From positions 531 through 64,530 of the forward strand of contig JBKDQC010000599.1 of the NCBI GenBank assembly GCA_046342295.1: a DNA stretch of 64,000 nucleotides, in the 5' to 3' direction. A program made the translations under genes and the position numbers. Of the stretch, positions 46,845 through 53,063 are shown in pieces. The notes under the pieces were generated by a model. The model worked only from the letters and a program-made list of their open reading frames with translations. It ran no database searches and was not told the origin of the DNA. Each line of letters begins with the position of its first letter. The first letter of the stretch is position 1. This DNA comes from Deltaproteobacteria bacterium (lineage in GTDB: Bacteria > Myxococcota_A > Polyangia > Polyangiales > Sandaracinaceae).

Positions 46845-49800
46845 TCAGAGCTGTGAGAGCCCGGTGCGGGCGTCGGCGTTGTTCGGGTCGAGCTGGAGGG
46901 CGCGCTCGAGCTCGCGCCGCGCCGCATCTCGGTTGCCGCTGCGGGCATGCGCTCGCCCGAGACCCACGTGGAACCCTGCGTTGGTGGGCGCGAGCTGGAC
47001 CGCGCGCTCGTAGGCCTGCACCGCACCGGTCGTGTCTCCCGCCGAGAGGCGGGCCGCGCCCAGGCCGCTCCATACGCTCGCGTTCGTCGGCGCGAGGCGG
47101 GTCGCCTGCTCGTAGGCCTGCGCGGCCTCGCGGTAGCGCCTCGCCTGGAAGTGCGCACGAGCCTGGGCCCGGAGGTCGTCGACGCTCGCCGTCCCCCCCG
47201 CCCCGCCGCCCGCGGCGCCAGCGCTCGGCGCACCCGCTCCGCCGGCACCCGCTCCGCCGGCACCCGCTCCGCCGGCACCCGTGCCGCCAGCGCCCGTGCC
47301 GCCAGCGCCCGTGCCGCCAGCGCCCGTGCCGCCAGCGCCCGTGCCGCCAGCGCCCGTGCCAGCGCCCGGGCGAAGTCCCGTGGCCAGCCGGGGTGCACCG
47401 GTGCTCGCGCTGCCGCTGCCTGTCGAGCCCGCCGAACCGCTGCCGGCTGAACCCGAGCCGCTGCCCGTCGAGCCCGCCGAGGTGGCCGATGAACCCGAGC
47501 CGCTCGTCGAGCCGCTGCCCGCCGAAGTGCTCCCGGCCGCACTGGGGCGCATGCCGGACGCCAGGCCACCGCCACCAGAGCCACCACCTGAGCTGCTGCC
47601 GCCACTGGCAGAGCCGCCCGTGCCCGTTCCACTCCCGCTGGGGCGCGTTCCGCTCGCGAGGCCGATGCCGCCGCTTCCGCCCGAGCCGCCAGAGCCCGAG
47701 CCGCCAGAGCCCGAGCCGCCCGAGCCGCCAGAGCCCGAGCCACCAGAGCCCAAGCCGCCAGCGCCCGAGCCACCAGCGCCCGAGCCGCCAGAGCCGGACA
47801 CGGAAGGTGCGGTCGTGGCCACCGCCGCGCTCGCGCGCGGCTGGAGCGTGATCGTCGTCGTGAAATCACTCGCGGGCATCGTCGACACGCTCGACTCGTA
47901 GTGACCTTCGAGCGTGGCGGTCGCCTGCACCAAGGAATCCCGGGGCACTTCGATCGTGACGGGCGCAGTGCCTCGCGGCGTTCCGTTGACCGTGATCGCC
48001 GCGCCAGGCGGGCTCGACTGCAGCGTCACCCGGACCATCGGCGCGGGCGCGGTCGGAGCGGGGACGACGGGAGGAGCAACGGCGACAGGCACCGTCGGGA
48101 CGGGCGTTGCGGGGACCGCCATCGGCGTTGCAGGGATCGCCACCGGCGGCGCGCCCGAGACGGCCGCGAGGATGGTCGTCTGCACCCCGCCGAGGTCCAA
48201 GAACCAAGCCGCGGCGGCACCCGCGACCGTCGTGAAGCCGCAGAAGCCCACGAGGCCGAGAAACACCCACAGGCCGGTGCGTCGCTTCCTCGGTTCCTCG
48301 GGCGTCGCCGCGCTGCTGTACGCGGGCGCAGGCGCTCCGAAACCACTGGCCGGCGCAGGCGCTCCGAACCCGCCCGCAGGCGCACCGAAGCCACCCGCGC
48401 TCGAAGGCGCGCCGAAGCCACCCGCGCTCGAAGGCGCGCCGAAGCCGCCCGCGCCCGAGGCCGCGCCGAAGCCACCCGCGCTCGAAGGCGCACCGAAGCC
48501 GCCCGCGCCCGAGGCCGCGCCGAAGCCACCCGCGCCCGAGGCCGCGCCGAAGCCACCCGCGCCCGAGGCCGCGCCGAAGCCACCCGCGCCCGAGGCCGCG
48601 CCGAAGCCACCCGCGCCCGAAGGCGCACCGAAGCCGCCCGCGCCCGAGGCGGCACCCGCGCTCGAAGGCACACCGAAGCCGCCCGAGGCCGCGCCGAAGC
48701 CACCCGCGCCCGAAGGCGCTCCCGCGCTCGAGGGCGCATCGAAGCCACCCGCACCCGCGGAGCCGCCGGGCCCTTGCGGCGGACCGAACGGCGCACCCTG
48801 TTGCGGGGGCGCCCCGAAGCCCGATGCGGGCGCTCCAAACCCCGCGCCCGATGCGGGCGCTCCGAAGCCGGGTGCGGGCGCCGTCGACGCCTGCGCGGCG
48901 GGTGGGCTCGCGGGCGCTGGCTGCGCTGTCGCTGGGGGAGCGCCCTCGATCTCTTCGAGGCCGCCGAGCGCCCGCAGCTCGTTCACCATGTCCCGCGAGA
49001 CTGCCTTCGTCTCCGCGAAATCATCGAAGTCGAGCGCCGCCGGCTCGGGCGCTGCGGGCTGGCTGGGAGGTGGGGGCGGCACCGCGAGGCCTCCCGACGG
49101 CGGGGCCGACATCTGCCCCGGGACCGTCGTCCGCGGCGGAGGCGGGGGGACGGAGCGCTTCTGACCCGGAACCGGAGGAGGATGAGACTGGCGTTGTGTC
49201 ATGGCGGAACCGTCGGAGTGGGGCGTGGCGAGAAGAGCCTCGGCGCCGGCGAGGTCGAGCGCGGACAACTGTTCCGTGCCGTCGGTACGGGGAGACGGCT
49301 GCGGCACAGCGACCGCGGCGAGGCCGAGAAGCGTTCCGCCGCCCTGCGGCCGGGACTGCGGCGCTCCGAGAGGACCCGTGAGCGGCTCGAGGATGCGGCG
49401 CACCTGCTGGGCCGAGAAAGGTCGGTCGCGCGGATCCTTCTGGAGCAATTGCGCGACGAGCGCGGTCACGACCTGGGGCTGCCCCTCGAGCGCTGGCGCG
49501 GGCTTCTGTCGGTGCTGCTCGAGGATCTCGTCGGCCGTCCCGACGAAGGGGGGCGCGCCGGTCAGGAGCTCGAAGAGCAAGCAGCCCAACGCGTAGAGGT
49601 CGCTACGGAAGCTCACGAGCTTGCCCAGCGCGTGCTCGGGCGACACGTAGGCGGGCTTTCCCACGATCTCGAACACCGACGCCGAGGCGATTCGCATGGC
49701 GACGCCCGTGTCGATCAGGCGGATGTCGCCATCGGGCTGCACGATGACGTGCTCGGGCGAGAGATCGCGCTGGAGCAGGCCGGCACGGTGAACCTCGTCG

Positions 49801-50168
49801 AGCGCTGCAGCGAGCTGTGCGACGACCTGGAGCGCGCCCTCGTAGGGCGCGCCGCGCGCGATCTTCTGACGCAGAGACTCGCCCTCGACCTCGACCCGGA
49901 AGACCCACGGGACATCGTCCGCAACACCGGTGGCATACACCTCCGCCAGGTAGGGGTGTCTGAGCGTCGCGAGCTTCTCGAGCTCGCGGCCGACACGCCC
50001 GCGCTCCGCGGCCGTCCACGCGCGCGCCGCCTCGATCAGCTTGAGCGCTCCGCGACGTTGCGTCGCCGCCTCGAGCGCACGATACGTGGCGCCCGACTGA
50101 CCAGCGGCGATGCGATCGCCCAGCTGGAAGCGCTGCGAGAGGACGTTCGGAAGCGAGCCGTCTGACAT
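46845..50168 (-). CDS. degenerate Ser/Thr kinase-like domain + FG-like repeat region + TM helix + PEGA-like domain + Gly/Ser/Ala/Thr low-complexity region + TPR domain
   Basis: Kinase fold with LLQRDLSPEHV (not HRD..N), DTG (not DFG) and AAGQSGA (degenerate G-loop). Also GGFGA(A/P)S repeats, the TM helix LWVFLGLVGFCGFTTVAGAAAAWFL, and C-terminal TPR repeats. Confidence 0.85.
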   Translation of the reverse strand: MSDGSLPNVLSQRFQLGDRIAAGQSGATYRALEAATQRRGALKLIEAARAWTAAERGRVGRELEKLATLRHPYLAEVYATGVADDVPWVFRVEVEGESLRQKIARGAPYEGALQVVAQLAAALDEVHRAGLLQRDLSPEHVIVQPDGDIRLIDTGVAMRIASASVFEIVGKPAYVSPEHALGKLVSFRSDLYALGCLLFELLTGAPPFVGTADEILEQHRQKPAPALEGQPQVVTALVAQLLQKDPRDRPFSAQQVRRILEPLTGPLGAPQSRPQGGGTLLGLAAVAVPQPSPRTDGTEQLSALDLAGAEALLATPHSDGSAMTQRQSHPPPVPGQKRSVPPPPPRTTVPGQMSAPPSGGLAVPPPPPSQPAAPEPAALDFDDFAETKAVSRDMVNELRALGGLEEIEGAPPATAQPAPASPPAAQASTAPAPGFGAPASGAGFGAPASGFGAPPQQGAPFGPPQGPGGSAGAGGFDAPSSAGAPSGAGGFGAASGGFGVPSSAGAASGAGGFGAPSGAGGFGAASGAGGFGAASGAGGFGAASGAGGFGAASGAGGFGAPSSAGGFGAASGAGGFGAPSSAGGFGAPSSAGGFGAPAGGFGAPAPASGFGAPAPAYSSAATPEEPRKRRTGLWVFLGLVGFCGFTTVAGAAAAWFLDLGGVQTTILAAVSGAPPVAIPATPMAVPATPVPTVPVAVAPPVVPAPTAPAPMVRVTLQSSPPGAAITVNGTPRGTAPVTIEVPRDSLVQATATLEGHYESSVSTMPASDFTTTITLQPRASAAVATTAPSVSGSGGSGAGGSGAGGLGSGGSGSGGSGGSGSGGSGSGGSGGSGGIGLASGTRPSGSGTGTGGSASGGSSSGGGSGGGGLASGMRPSAAGSTSAGSGSTSGSGSSATSAGSTGSGSGSAGSGSAGSTGSGSASTGAPRLATGLRPGAGTGAGGTGAGGTGAGGTGAGGTGAGGTGAGGAGAGGAGAGGAGAPSAGAAGGGAGGTASVDDLRAQARAHFQARRYREAAQAYEQATRLAPTNASVWSGLGAARLSAGDTTGAVQAYERAVQLAPTNAGFHVGLGRAHARSGNRDAARRELERALQLDPNNADARTGLSQL
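47228..47368. repeat. in-frame 15-nt tandem repeats (encode GAGGT/GAGGA pentapeptides on the minus strand)
   Basis: ggcacccgctccgcc x3, then agcgcccgtgccgcc x5. Confidence 0.85.
48330..48770. repeat. in-frame 27-nt tandem repeats (encode GAGGFGA(A/P)S nonapeptides on the minus strand)
   Basis: The unit gccgcgccgaagccacccgcgcccgag repeats about 14-16 times with variants. Confidence 0.85.
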
Positions 50169-50355: not shown

Positions 50356-51423
50356 ATGTCTGACGACAAGACCGAGGAGCCCACACCCAGGCGTTTGAGG
50401 GAGGCGCGCGAGCGCGGCCAGGTCGCGAGGAGCAAGGAGCTCGGGACGGCCGCGCTGCTGCTCGTGACCGCGGCGACGCTCGCGAGCGCGGCGCCCGGCT
50501 TCCTCCGCTCGTTCCGCGACCTGCTCGAGCCTGCGCTCGCCGCCGCACGCGGCGAGAGCGAGCTCTCCGCGGCCGGGGCGCTGTCATTGGGCATGGAGGT
50601 CGCCTCGGGCGTGAGCCTGCCCGTCCTCGCAGCGCTCGTGACCGTCGCGGTGGTCGCTTCGATCGTCCAGACGGGCCCCGTGCTCGCGCTCCAGGCGATC
50701 CGCTGGGACCTCTCTCGCCTCGATCCGATCGCGGGCGCAAGCCGTCTCTTCGGTCGCGACGCGTGGGTCGAGCTCGGCCGTTCCGTGCTCAAGGTGGGCA
50801 TCGTCGCCTGGGTCGTGATCGGGGTCGTCGAAGACGCGATGCGCGGCTCGATCGCCCTCGTCGGGCGCGACGCGAGCGCGCTCGCCGGCGCGCTCGGCGC
50901 CGTGGTGCAGGGCCTCCTCACGCGGAGCGGAGGCGCCATGCTGGCGGTCGCAGCCGCCGATGTCGTCTACCAGCGCTGGCGGCTCACGAAGGAGCTGCGC
51001 ATGACCAAGGAGGAGGTCAAGCGCGAGCACAAGGACGCCGAAGGCGACCCGCACGCGAAGGGAGAGCGCGACCGTGTGCGTCGCGAGATCGCGCAGCACG
51101 ACACAGCTGAATCCGTGCGCAGGGCGAGCGTGGTCGTCGTCAACCCCACCCACCTCGCCGTCGCGCTGCGCTTCGAGGAAGAGGAGAGCGAGGGCGCGCC
51201 CGAGGTCGTCGCCAAGGGCATGGAGGAGGAGGCGATCTACATCCGCCGACTCGCGGAGGAGGCGGGCGTGCCCATCGTGCGTGACATCCCTCTGGCGCGA
51301 GGCCTCTTCGAGCTCGAGCTCGGTGCGGAGATCCCCGAGCGCCTCTACGACGCAGTGGCCGCCGTGCTGCACGTCGCGTGGGCCGAGCGCGCCGCGGGCG
51401 AGCACGGGGGAGGTGCCGCTTGA
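50356..51423 (+). CDS. sctU: type III secretion export-apparatus switch protein, SctU/FlhB family (full length)
   Basis: N-terminal DKTEEPTPRRLREARERGQVARSKEL, 4 TM helices, MTKEEVKREHKDAEGDP, and the autocleavage motif VVVNPTHLAVAL. Confidence 0.88.
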   Translation: MSDDKTEEPTPRRLREARERGQVARSKELGTAALLLVTAATLASAAPGFLRSFRDLLEPALAAARGESELSAAGALSLGMEVASGVSLPVLAALVTVAVVASIVQTGPVLALQAIRWDLSRLDPIAGASRLFGRDAWVELGRSVLKVGIVAWVVIGVVEDAMRGSIALVGRDASALAGALGAVVQGLLTRSGGAMLAVAAADVVYQRWRLTKELRMTKEEVKREHKDAEGDPHAKGERDRVRREIAQHDTAESVRRASVVVVNPTHLAVALRFEEEESEGAPEVVAKGMEEEAIYIRRLAEEAGVPIVRDIPLARGLFELELGAEIPERLYDAVAAVLHVAWAERAAGEHGGGAA

Positions 51424-51815
51424 GCGCGCTTCGCGTTTCCGACGGCGCGCTCTCTCCAGCGACGATCACCAGCCTCGCCGACGAGCTGGGCGAGCTCGCG
51501 CGCGCACAGGCTGTTCACGGCGCGGAGCTCGCGCCCGAGCTCGTCCGCCTCGGAGCGGCGTGGCGCACGCCGGACGCGCACACGGGCCTCGGCGAGGCCG
51601 CGCCCATGCTCCGCACCGCAACCCTCGAGGAGGTCACTCGCATCGGCGCCCACCTCGGTCGGCTCGAGCGGGCGGCGAGCGAGCTGCCGGAGGAAGACAG
51701 TCTGCGCATCGCGGGGCGGCTCGCGCGCGTGCGCGTGCTCGTCGAGTGCGCGGGAGCGCTCGCGACGCTCCGGGCGGTCGCGGCCGCGGGCCTCTGCGCC
51801 GCGAGGCCGGCGTGA
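51420..51815 (+). CDS. hypothetical small protein (TTG start overlapping the sctU stop)
   Basis: The frame is open and helical-looking (LADELGELARAQ...). The start codon is uncertain and the Ala/Arg-rich composition limits confidence. Confidence 0.4.
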   Translation: MSALRVSDGALSPATITSLADELGELARAQAVHGAELAPELVRLGAAWRTPDAHTGLGEAAPMLRTATLEEVTRIGAHLGRLERAASELPEEDSLRIAGRLARVRVLVECAGALATLRAVAAAGLCAARPA

Positions 51816-52267
51816 GCCCCGAGGCGGCCTTGCTCGCGCGTGCGCTCCTGGACGGCCGCACGCTCGCGTCGGTGATCGGAGTGCCCGACGCGAGCCTCGA
51901 GGCGGCCCGCGACCTGGCGCGTTGGGCCGCGGCGATCGGCGAGCCGCAGCTCGCGCTCGCGGTCTGGGACGGCTGCGCCGCGCTCGATGACGCGGCGCCC
52001 TCGTGGCTCGGCCTGGCCGAGGTGGCCCTCGCGGCAGGCGAGGCCGGCCGCGCCTTCGAGGCGGCCGCGCAAGCGCGGGACCGCGCCGGCATCACGGACC
52101 GGGATCGCGCCGCGCTCGTCTCGGCGCGCGCCTGTCTACTCGGGGGGCGCGTCGCGGAGGCGCGCGCGTGGCTCCACACGATCTCCGGCGACGCGGACAA
52201 CGACGTCGCGCAGCTCGCACGCGCGATCGAAGCGTCGCTCGAGGCGCGTGCGGTGCAGGCTGGATGA
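51812..52267 (+). CDS. TPR-like protein resembling class II type III secretion chaperones (SycD/LcrH/IpgC pattern)
   Basis: GTGA overlap start. By eye, ALLDGRTLASVIGVPDASLEAARDLA...ALAVWDGCAALDD...WLGLAEVALAAGE...SARACLLGGRVAEARAWL follows the spacing of G.T.A...D.LE..LA...C.LD...LGL...A.CLL..G...EA in SycD. Confidence 0.55.
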   Translation: MSPEAALLARALLDGRTLASVIGVPDASLEAARDLARWAAAIGEPQLALAVWDGCAALDDAAPSWLGLAEVALAAGEAGRAFEAAAQARDRAGITDRDRAALVSARACLLGGRVAEARAWLHTISGDADNDVAQLARAIEASLEARAVQAG

Positions 52268-52307: not shown

Positions 52308-53063
52308 ATGCCTCGCACCCTGTCCGAAAAGCCCCGGGCTCTCGTCACCGGCGCCAGCCGCGGCATCGGCCGCGCGATCGCCGTCGAGCTCGCCAGGGCC
52401 GGCTATCCCGTCGTGCTCCACTTCAAGTCCAACGAGGCCAGAGCCCTCGAAGTGAAAGCCGAGATCGAGGCCGCCGGCGGCCGTGCGGAGACGGTCGGCT
52501 TCGACATCGCCGACTTCGACGCGACGCAGAGAGGCCTCGCCGGGCTCGGCCTCGAGGCGCGCCCGATCGGGGTCCTCGTGAACAACGCCGGTGTCACGGC
52601 CGATGCGCCGTTTCCCGCCATGGACCGCGCGCAGTGGTCGAGCGTCATCTCGACCACCCTCGACGGCTTCTACAACGTGACCCAGCCGCTCGTGATGCCG
52701 ATGGTGCGCCTCCGCTGGGGCCGGATCGTGAACATCACGAGTGTCTCGGGGCTGGTCGGCACCCGCGGCCAGGTGAACTACTCGGCCGCCAAGGCCGGGC
52801 TGATCGGGGCGACCAAGGCGCTCGCGCAGGAGCTCGCGAAGCGGAACATCACGGTCAACGCGGTCGCGCCCGGACCGGTCGAGACGGACATGTTCCAGGG
52901 GGCGCTCGCGCAAGGCACCCCGCTCGAGGAGGTCCTCAAGCACATCCCCATGCGGCGCATCGCGACGGTCGACGACGTCGCCGGCATCGTGGGCTTCCTC
53001 TGCTCGGATGCGGCCAGCTACATCACGGGGCAAGTCGTGGGAGTCAACGGCGGGATGTGTTGA
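52308..53063 (+). CDS. fabG: 3-oxoacyl-ACP reductase
   Basis: TGASRGIGRA, NNAGV, SVSG...YSAAKAG, and C-terminal GQVVGVNGGM. Confidence 0.9.
   Translation: MPRTLSEKPRALVTGASRGIGRAIAVELARAGYPVVLHFKSNEARALEVKAEIEAAGGRAETVGFDIADFDATQRGLAGLGLEARPIGVLVNNAGVTADAPFPAMDRAQWSSVISTTLDGFYNVTQPLVMPMVRLRWGRIVNITSVSGLVGTRGQVNYSAAKAGLIGATKALAQELAKRNITVNAVAPGPVETDMFQGALAQGTPLEEVLKHIPMRRIATVDDVAGIVGFLCSDAASYITGQVVGVNGGMC

What the first reader, a model, noticed from the sequence alone, without database searches (positions are those of the whole stretch)
50356..52267. Orphan full-length SctU/FlhB export-switch gene followed by a SycD/LcrH-like chaperone, with no other type III genes in the window
**Observed.**
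- The sctU-like gene has all the hallmarks: the N-terminal EEPTPRRL...ARS motif, four TM helices, and the NPTH autocleavage site.
- It is followed, with overlapping stop-start codons, by a small ORF of about 131 aa.
- Next is a 151-aa TPR-like protein whose residue spacing follows class II translocator chaperones (SycD/LcrH/IpgC), by my manual comparison.
- No SctR/S/T/V/N/Q/C, flagellar or needle genes occur anywhere in this 64-kb window. The genes downstream are fabG and a hybrid histidine kinase, and the divergent upstream gene is the giant pseudokinase.

**Established knowledge.** Myxobacteria lack flagella, and some carry reduced, needle-less T3SS-like clusters.

**Inference.** This may be a detached module serving a T3SS-like apparatus encoded elsewhere, or a repurposed SctU-chaperone pair.
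Basis: partly seen in the sequence, partly recalled or inferred. Interest (0 to 1): 0.6.

Follow-up and report, generated by a model that had tools for sequence, protein, structure and literature searches.

The report
Scattered needle-less type III secretion set
The lone sctU gene is real, but it is one piece of a type III secretion-like machine whose genes are scattered one by one around the chromosome in Sandaracinus-like myxobacteria, and it is followed by a SycD/LcrH-type chaperone and a small unknown partner that may be what the machine exports.

Summary
The window holds a full-length sctU (50356-51423, NPTH intact). A 131-aa ORF and a 151-aa TPR ORF follow it with overlapping stop and start codons. 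No other type III gene lies on the contig.

The gene is not truly orphan. The genome is a Sandaracinaceae MAG and carries two sets of type III genes:
- a clustered flagellar set with its own flhB;
- a second set (sctJ, L, N, Q, R, S-T, U, V) scattered over at least eight loci among housekeeping genes.

Related genomes show the same scatter. One is the complete 10.33-Mb Sandaracinus amylolyticus chromosome, where the genes lie 1.96 to 9.79 Mb apart and no flagellar set exists. I found no needle gene and no T3SS-type secretin.

The TPR protein is a diverged SycD/LcrH (class II) chaperone:
- The AlphaFold model has pLDDT 94.
- Its best PDB matches are IpgC, SycD and AcrH.
- hhalign gives 98% probability to TPR genes that lie downstream of sctU in Myxococcaceae loci, one of which passes the LcrH_SycD model's curated cutoff.

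The small ORF has a disordered N-terminus and a helical hairpin, and it matches no known family. Reading it as the chaperone's cargo is an inference.

Where this SctU clade sits relative to injectisome and Myxococcus-type SctU is unresolved. I rate this a new variant of a known kind, of moderate to high interest.

The parts
50356..51423 (+). sctU: export-gate switch subunit (355 aa, NPTH autocleavage motif at residue 263) of the scattered, needle-less T3SS-like gene set
   Evidence: Pfam PF01312 E=3.8e-104, full length. NCBIfam SctU model 320 bits against FlhB model 299 bits, both below their curated cutoffs. Member of a 21-row clade (support 100/98) whose loci carry no other T3SS gene.
51420..51815 (+). 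Small ORF 'X' (131 aa, TTG start overlapping the sctU stop). N-terminal about 60 residues are low-confidence or disordered and contain a conserved ELVRLG..P segment. The C-terminal part is a helical hairpin. Candidate cargo of the chaperone.
   Evidence: Codon-position GC. Orthologues at 44-59% identity. AF2 gives helices 60-86 and 91-128 at pLDDT about 95. Only 24 family representatives among 1.84 billion proteins. No Pfam, NCBIfam, PDB or fold match.
51812..52267 (+). Diverged SycD/LcrH-family (class II-type) TPR chaperone, 151 aa, GTG start overlapping the stop of X
   Evidence: AF2 pLDDT 94.1. Foldseek top hits are IpgC, SycD, AcrH and PcrH. hhalign 98.2% to sctU-linked TPR proteins that score as LcrH_SycD. 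Direct family hits are weak only: TPR_19 E=1e-3 and SctY E=0.16.
46845..50168 (-). Context only: divergent upstream Ser/Thr-kinase-like plus TPR protein (1107 aa), not part of the module
   Evidence: Pfam Pkinase E=9e-31 plus C-terminal TPRs. This neighbour is not conserved next to sctU in other families.
52308..53063 (+). Context only: SDR/FabG-like gene. It marks the downstream end of the module in this genus; other families have priA at this position.
   Evidence: Pfam adh_short E=8e-55. Conserved at 81-92% identity in genus relatives. priA follows sctU(-X-TPR) in other families.

Best explanation
The sctU gene encodes the switch/autoprotease subunit of a complete but physically scattered type III secretion-like export apparatus. 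That apparatus lacks a needle and a secretin and is characteristic of Sandaracinaceae and related Polyangiales.

**Shown: the scattered set.** The partner genes sctJ, sctL, sctN, sctQ, sctR, sctS-sctT and sctV each sit at their own locus among housekeeping genes. Examples are ybaB-recR-sctV here and sctU-priA in other families. This arrangement is conserved across families.

**Shown: the gene pair behind sctU.** Two translationally coupled genes remain attached to sctU. One encodes a small protein X with a disordered N-terminus and a C-terminal helical hairpin. The other encodes a SycD/LcrH-family TPR chaperone. The sctU-X-chaperone order is older than the scatter. It also occurs downstream of sctU in the clustered Myxococcaceae-type loci and in Acidobacteria loci.

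**Inferred: the mechanism.**
- The chaperone's concave TPR groove holds X through the conserved hydrophobic-R-L...P segment, as class II chaperones hold the P/VxLxxP motif of translocators.
- The complex docks at the SctU/SctV gate.
- X is exported or inserted as an early, stoichiometrically produced substrate or accessory of the needle-less machine.
For: **Two gene sets in the genome.**
- The clustered set on C96 is flagellar: FliL, FliM/N, FlhF, FliA, FlgF and FlgG.
- The second set is scattered.

**Scatter in other genomes.**
- In the complete 10,327,335-bp genome G008, the genes lie at 1.96 (U), 5.48 (J), 5.75 (T), 5.80 (V), 6.25 (L), 7.98 (R), 9.10 (Q) and 9.79 Mb (N). No flagellar set is present.
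- That length equals the published size of Sandaracinus amylolyticus DSM 53668 (PMC11509652).
- Orthologous sctU in 12 inspected relatives has no other T3SS gene within 10 kb on either side.
- Micro-synteny around sctV, sctJ, sctS-T and sctL is conserved in three families.
- The SctU clade is monophyletic with support 100/98, and all of its loci carry either priA or no T3SS neighbour.

**Missing parts.** No needle family hit and no secretin above the T3SS cutoff were found.

**Selection.** dN/dS is below 1 for all three genes.

**Chaperone.** The evidence is the fold, the hhalign result, and LcrH_SycD scores of 62-112 bits for sctU-linked TPR proteins. The TPR profile hits ORFs 0.5-1.7 kb downstream of sctU in about 25 loci. 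It hits only one other place in the 7.25-Mb genome.

**Motif.** The published class II binding motif is P/VxLxxP (PMC3443056). X-position proteins read VRLPEP, MRLSSP, LRLAVP, LRLRAP and LPLRAP.
Against: - The window's own TPR protein does not reach any T3SS chaperone model directly.
- No hydrophobic translocator, the classic class II cargo, is present.
- X of this clade shows no significant profile similarity to the X-position proteins of the Myxococcaceae-type or Acidobacteria loci (hhalign probability 0.4%).
- In the window's genus the motif reads VRLGAAW.P, with the proline displaced.
- Several relatives have sctU followed directly by priA with no obvious ORF pair in between. I did not find the pair there, so it may be dispensable.
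- X and the TPR gene evolve fast, with dN/dS up to 0.78.
- Sandaracinus-like orthologues have lost NPTH, so the canonical switch mechanism may not apply throughout the clade.
- G000 is a fragmented MAG. Scatter in this particular genome is inferred partly from relatives.
Confidence: 0.7

Rival explanations
1. The X-TPR pair is a gate-accessory or regulatory pair, like SctX-SctY (YscX-YscY), rather than a substrate with its chaperone. It would bind SctV or SctU to license early export, and X would not be the machine's product.
For: The TPR proteins also score on the SctY model: window E=0.16, and relatives 1e-10 to 5e-12. The PDB profile search lists SctY 8arc at E=0.07, next to AcrH at E=0.06. 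X is about the size of SctX, and its confidently folded part lies in the C-terminal half. The tight coupling to an export-gate gene fits an apparatus accessory.
Against: The LcrH_SycD model scores far higher than the SctY model on the same relatives (112 against 46 bits). No SctY or needle-chaperone structure appears in the top 50 fold matches, whereas class II chaperones fill the top ranks. X has no detectable similarity to any family.
Confidence: 0.2
2. The scattered sct genes are a decaying relic or have been repurposed individually. The sctU-chaperone module then works on its own, without a T3SS-like complex.
For: Scatter and loss of operon structure usually accompany decay. NPTH is lost in Sandaracinus-like orthologues. 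The X-TPR pair was not seen in several lineages. No shared promoter motif was found.
Against: All nine core genes are intact, with no internal stops, in all six genomes examined, which span four genera. Loci and flanks are conserved across families. sctU dN/dS is 0.22-0.33. SctU has no known function outside the SctRSTUV gate (established knowledge).
Confidence: 0.08
3. The window's sctU is a second FlhB serving the flagellum encoded on contigs C96 and C632.
For: The genome has a flagellar cluster. The FlhB model scores nearly as high as the SctU model on the window protein (299 against 320 bits).
Against: The flagellar cluster has its own flhB, only 39% identical to the window protein. Genomes without any flagellar set (G008, G024) keep the orphan sctU and the whole scattered set. 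The two proteins fall in separate, well-supported clades. The scattered set has a short SctJ-type lipoprotein of 264 aa rather than a FliF.
Confidence: 0.03
4. The isolation of sctU is an artefact: a chimeric MAG contig or a contaminant.
For: The assembly is fragmented (836 contigs, 1.97% contamination).
Against: The same sctU-X-TPR-SDR order is found in five other genomes of the genus, including a 188-kb contig. The same isolation is seen in complete chromosomes. GC and codon-position GC are uniform across the junctions.
Confidence: 0.01

Closest known systems
Myxococcales 'Myxo' non-flagellar T3SS, the needle-less T3SS* of Myxococcus xanthus (Abby & Rocha 2012, PMC3459982; review PMC10849154)
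   Same: It belongs to the same phylum. It has the same core content (SctJ, N, R, S, T, U, V plus L and Q) and lacks a secretin and a needle. In the Myxococcaceae-type loci I examined, a SycD/LcrH-type TPR gene lies downstream of sctU, with a small ORF in between.
   Different: The published Myxo systems are compact 'short' and 'long' loci with conserved gene order, reported as restricted to Cystobacterineae. Here every gene or gene pair is at a separate locus. The SctU clade is distinct from the Myxococcaceae-type clade (100/98 and 100/100). Whether the two are sisters is unresolved (AU p=0.64).
Scattered T3SS of Chlamydiales and Hamiltonella (cited in PMC3459982)
   Same: A functional non-flagellar T3SS is encoded at several unlinked loci.
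   Different: In Chlamydia the genes are still grouped in at least four multi-gene loci, and the system has a needle, a secretin and translocators. Here the scatter is almost gene by gene (eight or more loci over a 10-Mb chromosome), the genes are embedded next to housekeeping genes, and no needle or secretin was found.
Class II translocator chaperones SycD/LcrH, IpgC, AcrH and PcrH
   Same: Size (151 aa), all-helical three-TPR fold with a capping helix, best structural matches in the PDB, and linkage to T3SS genes.
   Different: Sequence identity is only 16-22%. There is no direct hit to TIGR02552. No adjacent hydrophobic translocators are present. The adjacent candidate cargo is a 131-aa soluble-looking protein encoded upstream, not downstream.
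SctX-SctY (YscX-YscY) export-gate accessory pair
   Same: A small protein plus a small TPR chaperone encoded next to an export-gate gene.
   Different: SctY-model scores are much weaker than LcrH_SycD scores on the relatives. No SctY structure is among the top fold hits. No similarity of X to SctX was detected.

Membership tests
SctU/FlhB export-switch family (Pfam PF01312) | Full-length match to the family profile | tested here: met
   E=3.8e-104, profile positions 1-333 of 335
SctU/FlhB export-switch family (Pfam PF01312) | NPTH autocleavage motif in the cytoplasmic domain | tested here: met
   NPTH at residue 263. Cleavage itself cannot be tested here.
SctU/FlhB export-switch family (Pfam PF01312) | N-terminal domain with four transmembrane helices | tested here: inconclusive
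   Three strong hydrophobic segments plus a weaker fourth on a Kyte-Doolittle scan. The profile alignment covers the whole TM domain.
SctU/FlhB export-switch family (Pfam PF01312) | SctR, S, T and V partners encoded in the same genome | tested here: met
   A second copy of each is present outside the flagellar cluster
Injectisome SctU equivalog (NCBIfam TIGR01404) versus flagellar FlhB equivalog (TIGR00328) | Score above the curated equivalog cutoff | tested here: not met
   320.3 bits against a cutoff of 358 for SctU, and 299.1 against 349.25 for FlhB. The protein belongs to neither curated subgroup.
SycD/LcrH class II T3SS chaperones (NCBIfam TIGR02552) | Match to the family model | tested here: not met
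   No hit at E<=1 for the window protein. Relatives linked by hhalign (98.2%) score 62-112 bits, and one exceeds the 104.8-bit cutoff.
SycD/LcrH class II T3SS chaperones (NCBIfam TIGR02552) | About 150-aa all-helical fold of three TPRs plus a capping helix | tested here: met
   AF2 pLDDT 94 with nine helices. Top PDB matches are IpgC, SycD and AcrH, TM 0.73-0.82.
SycD/LcrH class II T3SS chaperones (NCBIfam TIGR02552) | Encoded next to hydrophobic translocator genes (SctE/SctB) that carry a P/VxLxxP motif | tested here: not met
   No translocator-like gene is adjacent. The neighbour X has no strong TM segment. X carries only a related hydrophobic-R-L..P segment.
SycD/LcrH class II T3SS chaperones (NCBIfam TIGR02552) | Binds its cargo in the concave groove and is needed for cargo stability and export | not testable with these tools
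   No complex prediction or experiment was available
Myxo-type needle-less T3SS (Abby & Rocha 2012) | Core export apparatus, ATPase and SctJ present; secretin, needle and flagellum-specific genes absent | tested here: met
   G008 and G024 have only this set.
Myxo-type needle-less T3SS (Abby & Rocha 2012) | Genes in a compact locus with conserved order | tested here: not met
   Eight or more separate loci; 1.96-9.79 Mb in G008
Myxo-type needle-less T3SS (Abby & Rocha 2012) | Phylogenetic grouping with the Cystobacterineae systems | tested here: inconclusive
   The free tree places the clade next to a RhcU-containing clade (97/96). The AU test does not reject a joint clade with the Myxococcaceae type (p=0.64).
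SctX/SctY pair | Match of the TPR protein to the SctY model and of the small protein to SctX | tested here: not met
   SctY E=0.16, 12.5 bits against a cutoff of 70. X matches nothing.

The most novel reading that the evidence does not exclude
Polyangia carry an ancient, functional T3SS-like nanomachine whose genes have been scattered singly among housekeeping genes yet kept for family-level time spans. The sctU-X-LcrH/SycD chaperone triad, shared with the Myxococcus needle-less T3SS* and with Acidobacteria loci, encodes the long-sought first substrate (X) of these 'translocator-less' systems. In that case class II chaperones would predate translocators, and X would be a functional stand-in for a needle, tip or translocator.
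Probability: 0.3. Interest if true: 0.8.

Novelty: new variant of a known kind. Interest (0 to 1): 0.62.

Why it matters
T3SS genes are a textbook example of tight clustering, and detection tools rely on it. A core set that stays intact while scattered gene by gene over 10 Mb would be missed by cluster-based searches. The published view places needle-less T3SS only in Cystobacterineae (PMC3459982, PMC10849154).

It also raises the question of how assembly and stoichiometry are coordinated without operons.

Second, needle-less myxobacterial T3SS* are implicated in prey lysis, but their substrates are unknown. A conserved SycD/LcrH-type chaperone next to sctU points to one concrete candidate cargo, X. 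That candidate can be tested directly in Myxococcus xanthus or Sandaracinus amylolyticus.

Tried and rejected
- **Direct family searches of the two small ORFs** gave only sub-threshold TPR and SctY hits for the TPR protein and nothing for X.
- **PDB sequence-profile search.** The TPR profile hits generic designed TPRs best, with AcrH and SctY at E about 0.06-0.07. X hits nothing credible.
- **Fold search of X** found only generic helical hairpins, E>1.
- **Profile-profile comparison of X** with the X-position proteins of Myxococcaceae-type and Acidobacteria loci was not significant. Homology of X across groups therefore rests only on position and a short motif.
- **Pfam scans** of 34 X-type proteins gave no family.
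- **SctU phylogeny.** The quick and careful trees put the clade next to a RhcU-containing clade. A constrained tree joining it to the Myxococcaceae type is at least as likely. I therefore do not claim a deep placement.
- **Shared promoter motif.** No 8-mer upstream of the eight scattered loci is shared beyond what shuffles give.
- **Literature.** I found no description of a scattered T3SS in Polyangia or Sandaracinus. The only mention is that sctV and sctR copies occur in Polyangia (PMC11509652). The Thiery et al. 2022 paper was not held.
- **Earlier scan notes** held nothing on T3SS.
Full report
**1. What is in the window**

The region is 72-77% GC, so many spurious ORFs appear. A codon-position GC profile resolves three consecutive plus-strand genes with sharp frame changes at their borders.

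- **Gene 1 (50356-51423)** is a 355-aa SctU/FlhB protein. Pfam Bac_export_2 matches at E=3.8e-104 over the full profile length. The N-terminus reads EEPTPRRL...ARS, and NPTH is at residue 263. The NCBIfam SctU model scores 320 bits and the FlhB model 299 bits, both below their curated cutoffs.
- **Gene 2 (51420-51815, 131 aa)** starts with TTG inside a TTGA overlap with the sctU stop and has a good ribosome-binding site.
- **Gene 3 (51812-52267, 151 aa)** starts with GTG inside a GTGA overlap.

A 1107-aa kinase-like plus TPR protein lies divergently upstream. An SDR and a hybrid histidine kinase lie downstream.

**2. The genome has two type III gene sets**

The window is contig C599 of a 7.25-Mb, 836-contig assembly that is 95% complete. 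Record titles of the closest relatives name Sandaracinaceae, in the Polyangiales of the Myxococcota.

Family searches find exactly two copies each of SctU, SctV, SctR, SctS and SctT.

- **Set A** lies together on contig C96 as fliL, fliM/N, fliP-Q-R, flhB, flhA, flhF, flhG, fliA, flgF and flgG. It is a flagellar cluster. Its FliI, FliH and FliF are on C632.
- **Set B** is scattered:

| Gene | Location in G000 | Note |
|---|---|---|
| sctU | window (C599) | |
| sctV | C520 | directly after ybaB-recR |
| sctR | C51 | |
| sctS-sctT | C636 | |
| sctJ | C802 | 264-aa lipoprotein type |
| sctN | C548 | |
| sctQ | C21 | |
| sctL | C81 | |

No needle family hit and no secretin reaching the T3SS model's cutoff were found in six genomes.

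**3. The scatter is real and old**

Some G000 contigs are short, so I checked relatives.

- **G008** is a single 10,327,335-bp contig. That is the published size of Sandaracinus amylolyticus DSM 53668 (PMC11509652). It has only set B. The genes lie at 1.96 (U), 5.48 (J), 5.75 (T), 5.80 (V), 6.25 (L), 7.98 (R), 9.10 (Q) and 9.79 Mb (N).
- **G024** (also complete), **G038** and **G025** (other families) and **G004** (same genus) show the same pattern.
- Orthologues of the window's sctU (73-80% identity in the genus, 41-53% in other families) have no other T3SS gene within 10 kb on either side in all 12 loci inspected.
- The local neighbourhoods are conserved across three families: ybaB-recR-sctV-(330-aa gene), sctJ next to a Ser/Thr kinase, sctS-sctT, and the flanks of sctL.
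- In most other families sctU, with or without the two small genes, is followed by priA. In the window's genus an SDR gene takes that place.
- sctU is under purifying selection, with dN/dS of 0.22-0.33.

**4. Phylogeny of SctU**

I built a 92-sequence tree. It includes the following groups:
- 80 loci from genome contigs;
- the genome's own flagellar FlhB;
- FlhB from E. coli K-12, Thermomicrobium and Roseivivax;
- a rhizobial RhcU.

The results are these.

- The scattered-type SctU forms one clade of 21 rows with support 100/98. Every member has either priA or no T3SS neighbour.
- It is separate from the flagellar references, which include set A (99/92), and from the clustered Myxococcaceae/Archangiaceae type (100/100).
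- The free tree puts it next to a clade containing RhcU (97/96), on a very short branch.
- A tree constrained to join it with the Myxococcaceae type is not rejected, and in fact scored slightly better (AU p=0.64).

I therefore leave the deep placement open. The short SctJ, rather than a FliF, marks the set as non-flagellar.

**5. The TPR protein**

Direct family searches give only weak hits: TPR_19 at E=1e-3 and SctY at E=0.16. With an 11-sequence alignment, AlphaFold2 gives a confident model with pLDDT 94.1 and nine helices.

Against 350,542 PDB chains, the top hits are class II translocator chaperones:
- IpgC (3gz1_B, E=1.7e-4);
- SycD (2vgx_A);
- AcrH (3wxx_A, TM 0.81/0.82 over 148 columns);
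- PcrH and Scc3 further down the list.

An HMM of the alignment was searched against six-frame translations of the whole genome and of all fetched loci.
- It hits TPR ORFs 0.5-1.7 kb downstream of sctU on the same strand in about 25 loci. These are Myxococcaceae-type loci, other Myxococcota groups and Acidobacteria.
- It hits only one other place in the 7.25-Mb genome.
- Those ORFs score as NCBIfam LcrH_SycD. L090 reaches 112.1 bits against a cutoff of 104.8, and the others score 62-98 bits.
- hhalign between the two alignments gives 98.2% probability and E=5e-14 over 144 columns.

The window protein is therefore a diverged member of the SycD/LcrH chaperone lineage. The link between sctU and this chaperone is older than the scatter.

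**6. The small ORF X**

- Orthologues exist wherever the TPR gene was found in this clade, apart from two loci (L040 and L041/L051) where only the TPR gene was detected.
- Only 24 representatives exist among 1.84 billion proteins.
- AlphaFold gives a low-confidence N-terminal 60 residues and a confident C-terminal helical hairpin.
- No family, PDB sequence or fold match was found.
- The best-conserved N-terminal element is E-L-[LV]-R-L-G...P, with R43 and L44 in at least 90% of sequences.
- In the other groups an ORF of 120-170 aa also sits between sctU and the chaperone gene. These ORFs carry VRLPEP, MRLSSP, LRLAVP, LRLDRP and the like.
- Those segments fit the published class II chaperone-binding motif P/VxLxxP, which has hydrophobic residues at positions 1, 3 and 6 (PMC3443056).
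- Profile-profile comparison between the two sets of X proteins is not significant, and in the window's genus the proline is displaced.

That X is the chaperone's cargo is therefore an inference from position, coupling, architecture and a short motif.

**7. Mechanism proposed**

- **Shown:** a full complement of inner-membrane and cytoplasmic T3SS parts without a needle or secretin, scattered and conserved; and a SycD/LcrH-type chaperone gene coupled to sctU.
- **Inferred:**
  - The scattered gene products assemble into one needle-less export apparatus like the Myxococcus T3SS*.
  - X is kept export-competent by the chaperone.
  - X is handed to the SctU/SctV gate as an early substrate or accessory.

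The main rival for the pair is an SctX/SctY-like gate accessory. Relic, flagellar-paralogue and artefact explanations are disfavoured by the evidence listed under the rival explanations.

**8. Comparison and novelty**

The closest known system is the Myxo needle-less T3SS. It is described as compact loci restricted to Cystobacterineae (PMC3459982, PMC10849154). Scattered T3SS are known from Chlamydiales, but as multi-gene loci with a needle and secretin (PMC3459982).

I found no description of a gene-by-gene scattered T3SS in Polyangia in the literature I searched. I also found no description of an sctU-linked SycD/LcrH chaperone in needle-less systems.

I class it as a new variant of a known kind.

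**Limits**
- There is no complex prediction.
- The window's own genome is a fragmented MAG.
- The deep phylogeny is unresolved.

Noticed in passing
G000 contig C96:7207-20337 and C632 (outside the window): This Sandaracinaceae MAG holds a complete-looking flagellar gene cluster: fliL, fliM/N, fliPQR, flhB, flhA, flhF, flhG, fliA, flgF and flgG, with fliF, fliH and fliI on C632. Related FlhB genes occur in several genomes of the same family (L028-L030). Cultured myxobacteria are regarded as non-flagellated.
   Followed up: partly
L024, L025 (Sandaracinus-like, G024/G008), L027; L016, L017: Orthologues of the window's SctU in Sandaracinus-like genomes have lost the NPTH autocleavage motif (GAGI, GAGV, GARD in its place). 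Two other orthologues read NPTR. The switch by autocleavage may therefore not operate throughout the clade.
   Followed up: no
L090:7014-7382, L077:5950-6303, L074:7054-7365: In Myxococcaceae-type loci, sctU (with NPDH or NPEH instead of NPTH) is followed by a separate small ORF. That ORF encodes only an FlhB/SctU C-terminal domain (TIGR00789 flhB_rel, E=1e-24). Then come the X-position ORF and the LcrH/SycD-type chaperone gene.
   Followed up: partly
L058, L061, L067, L068, L085, L089, L093, L094, L104, L105, L108, L110, L112, L114, L116: Further sctU-like genes without sctR, sctT or sctV neighbours within 6 kb occur in other Myxococcota ('NPAH' group), Bdellovibrionales-labelled, Pyrinomonadaceae and Bryobacteraceae MAGs. 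Scattered or partly scattered T3SS-like sets may be more widespread.
   Followed up: no
G000 C520:576-4874; L127; L134: The scattered-set sctV sits directly after the housekeeping pair ybaB-recR and before a conserved 330-aa proline-rich exported protein. This holds in three families.
   Followed up: partly
protein P0012: A 145-aa database protein named 'sigma54-dependent transcription regulator' (Pfam PF00158) is 84% identical to the small ORF X over 57% of X. It comes from a 1.4-kb contig and is probably a gene call across a contig end or a chimera.
   Followed up: no
L079, L081, L082, L121 (Acidobacteria loci): Two TPR chaperone-like ORFs follow sctU, at about +0.5 kb and about +1.6 kb. In L115 and L121, a glycine- or Q/M-rich ORF lies between them.
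   Followed up: no
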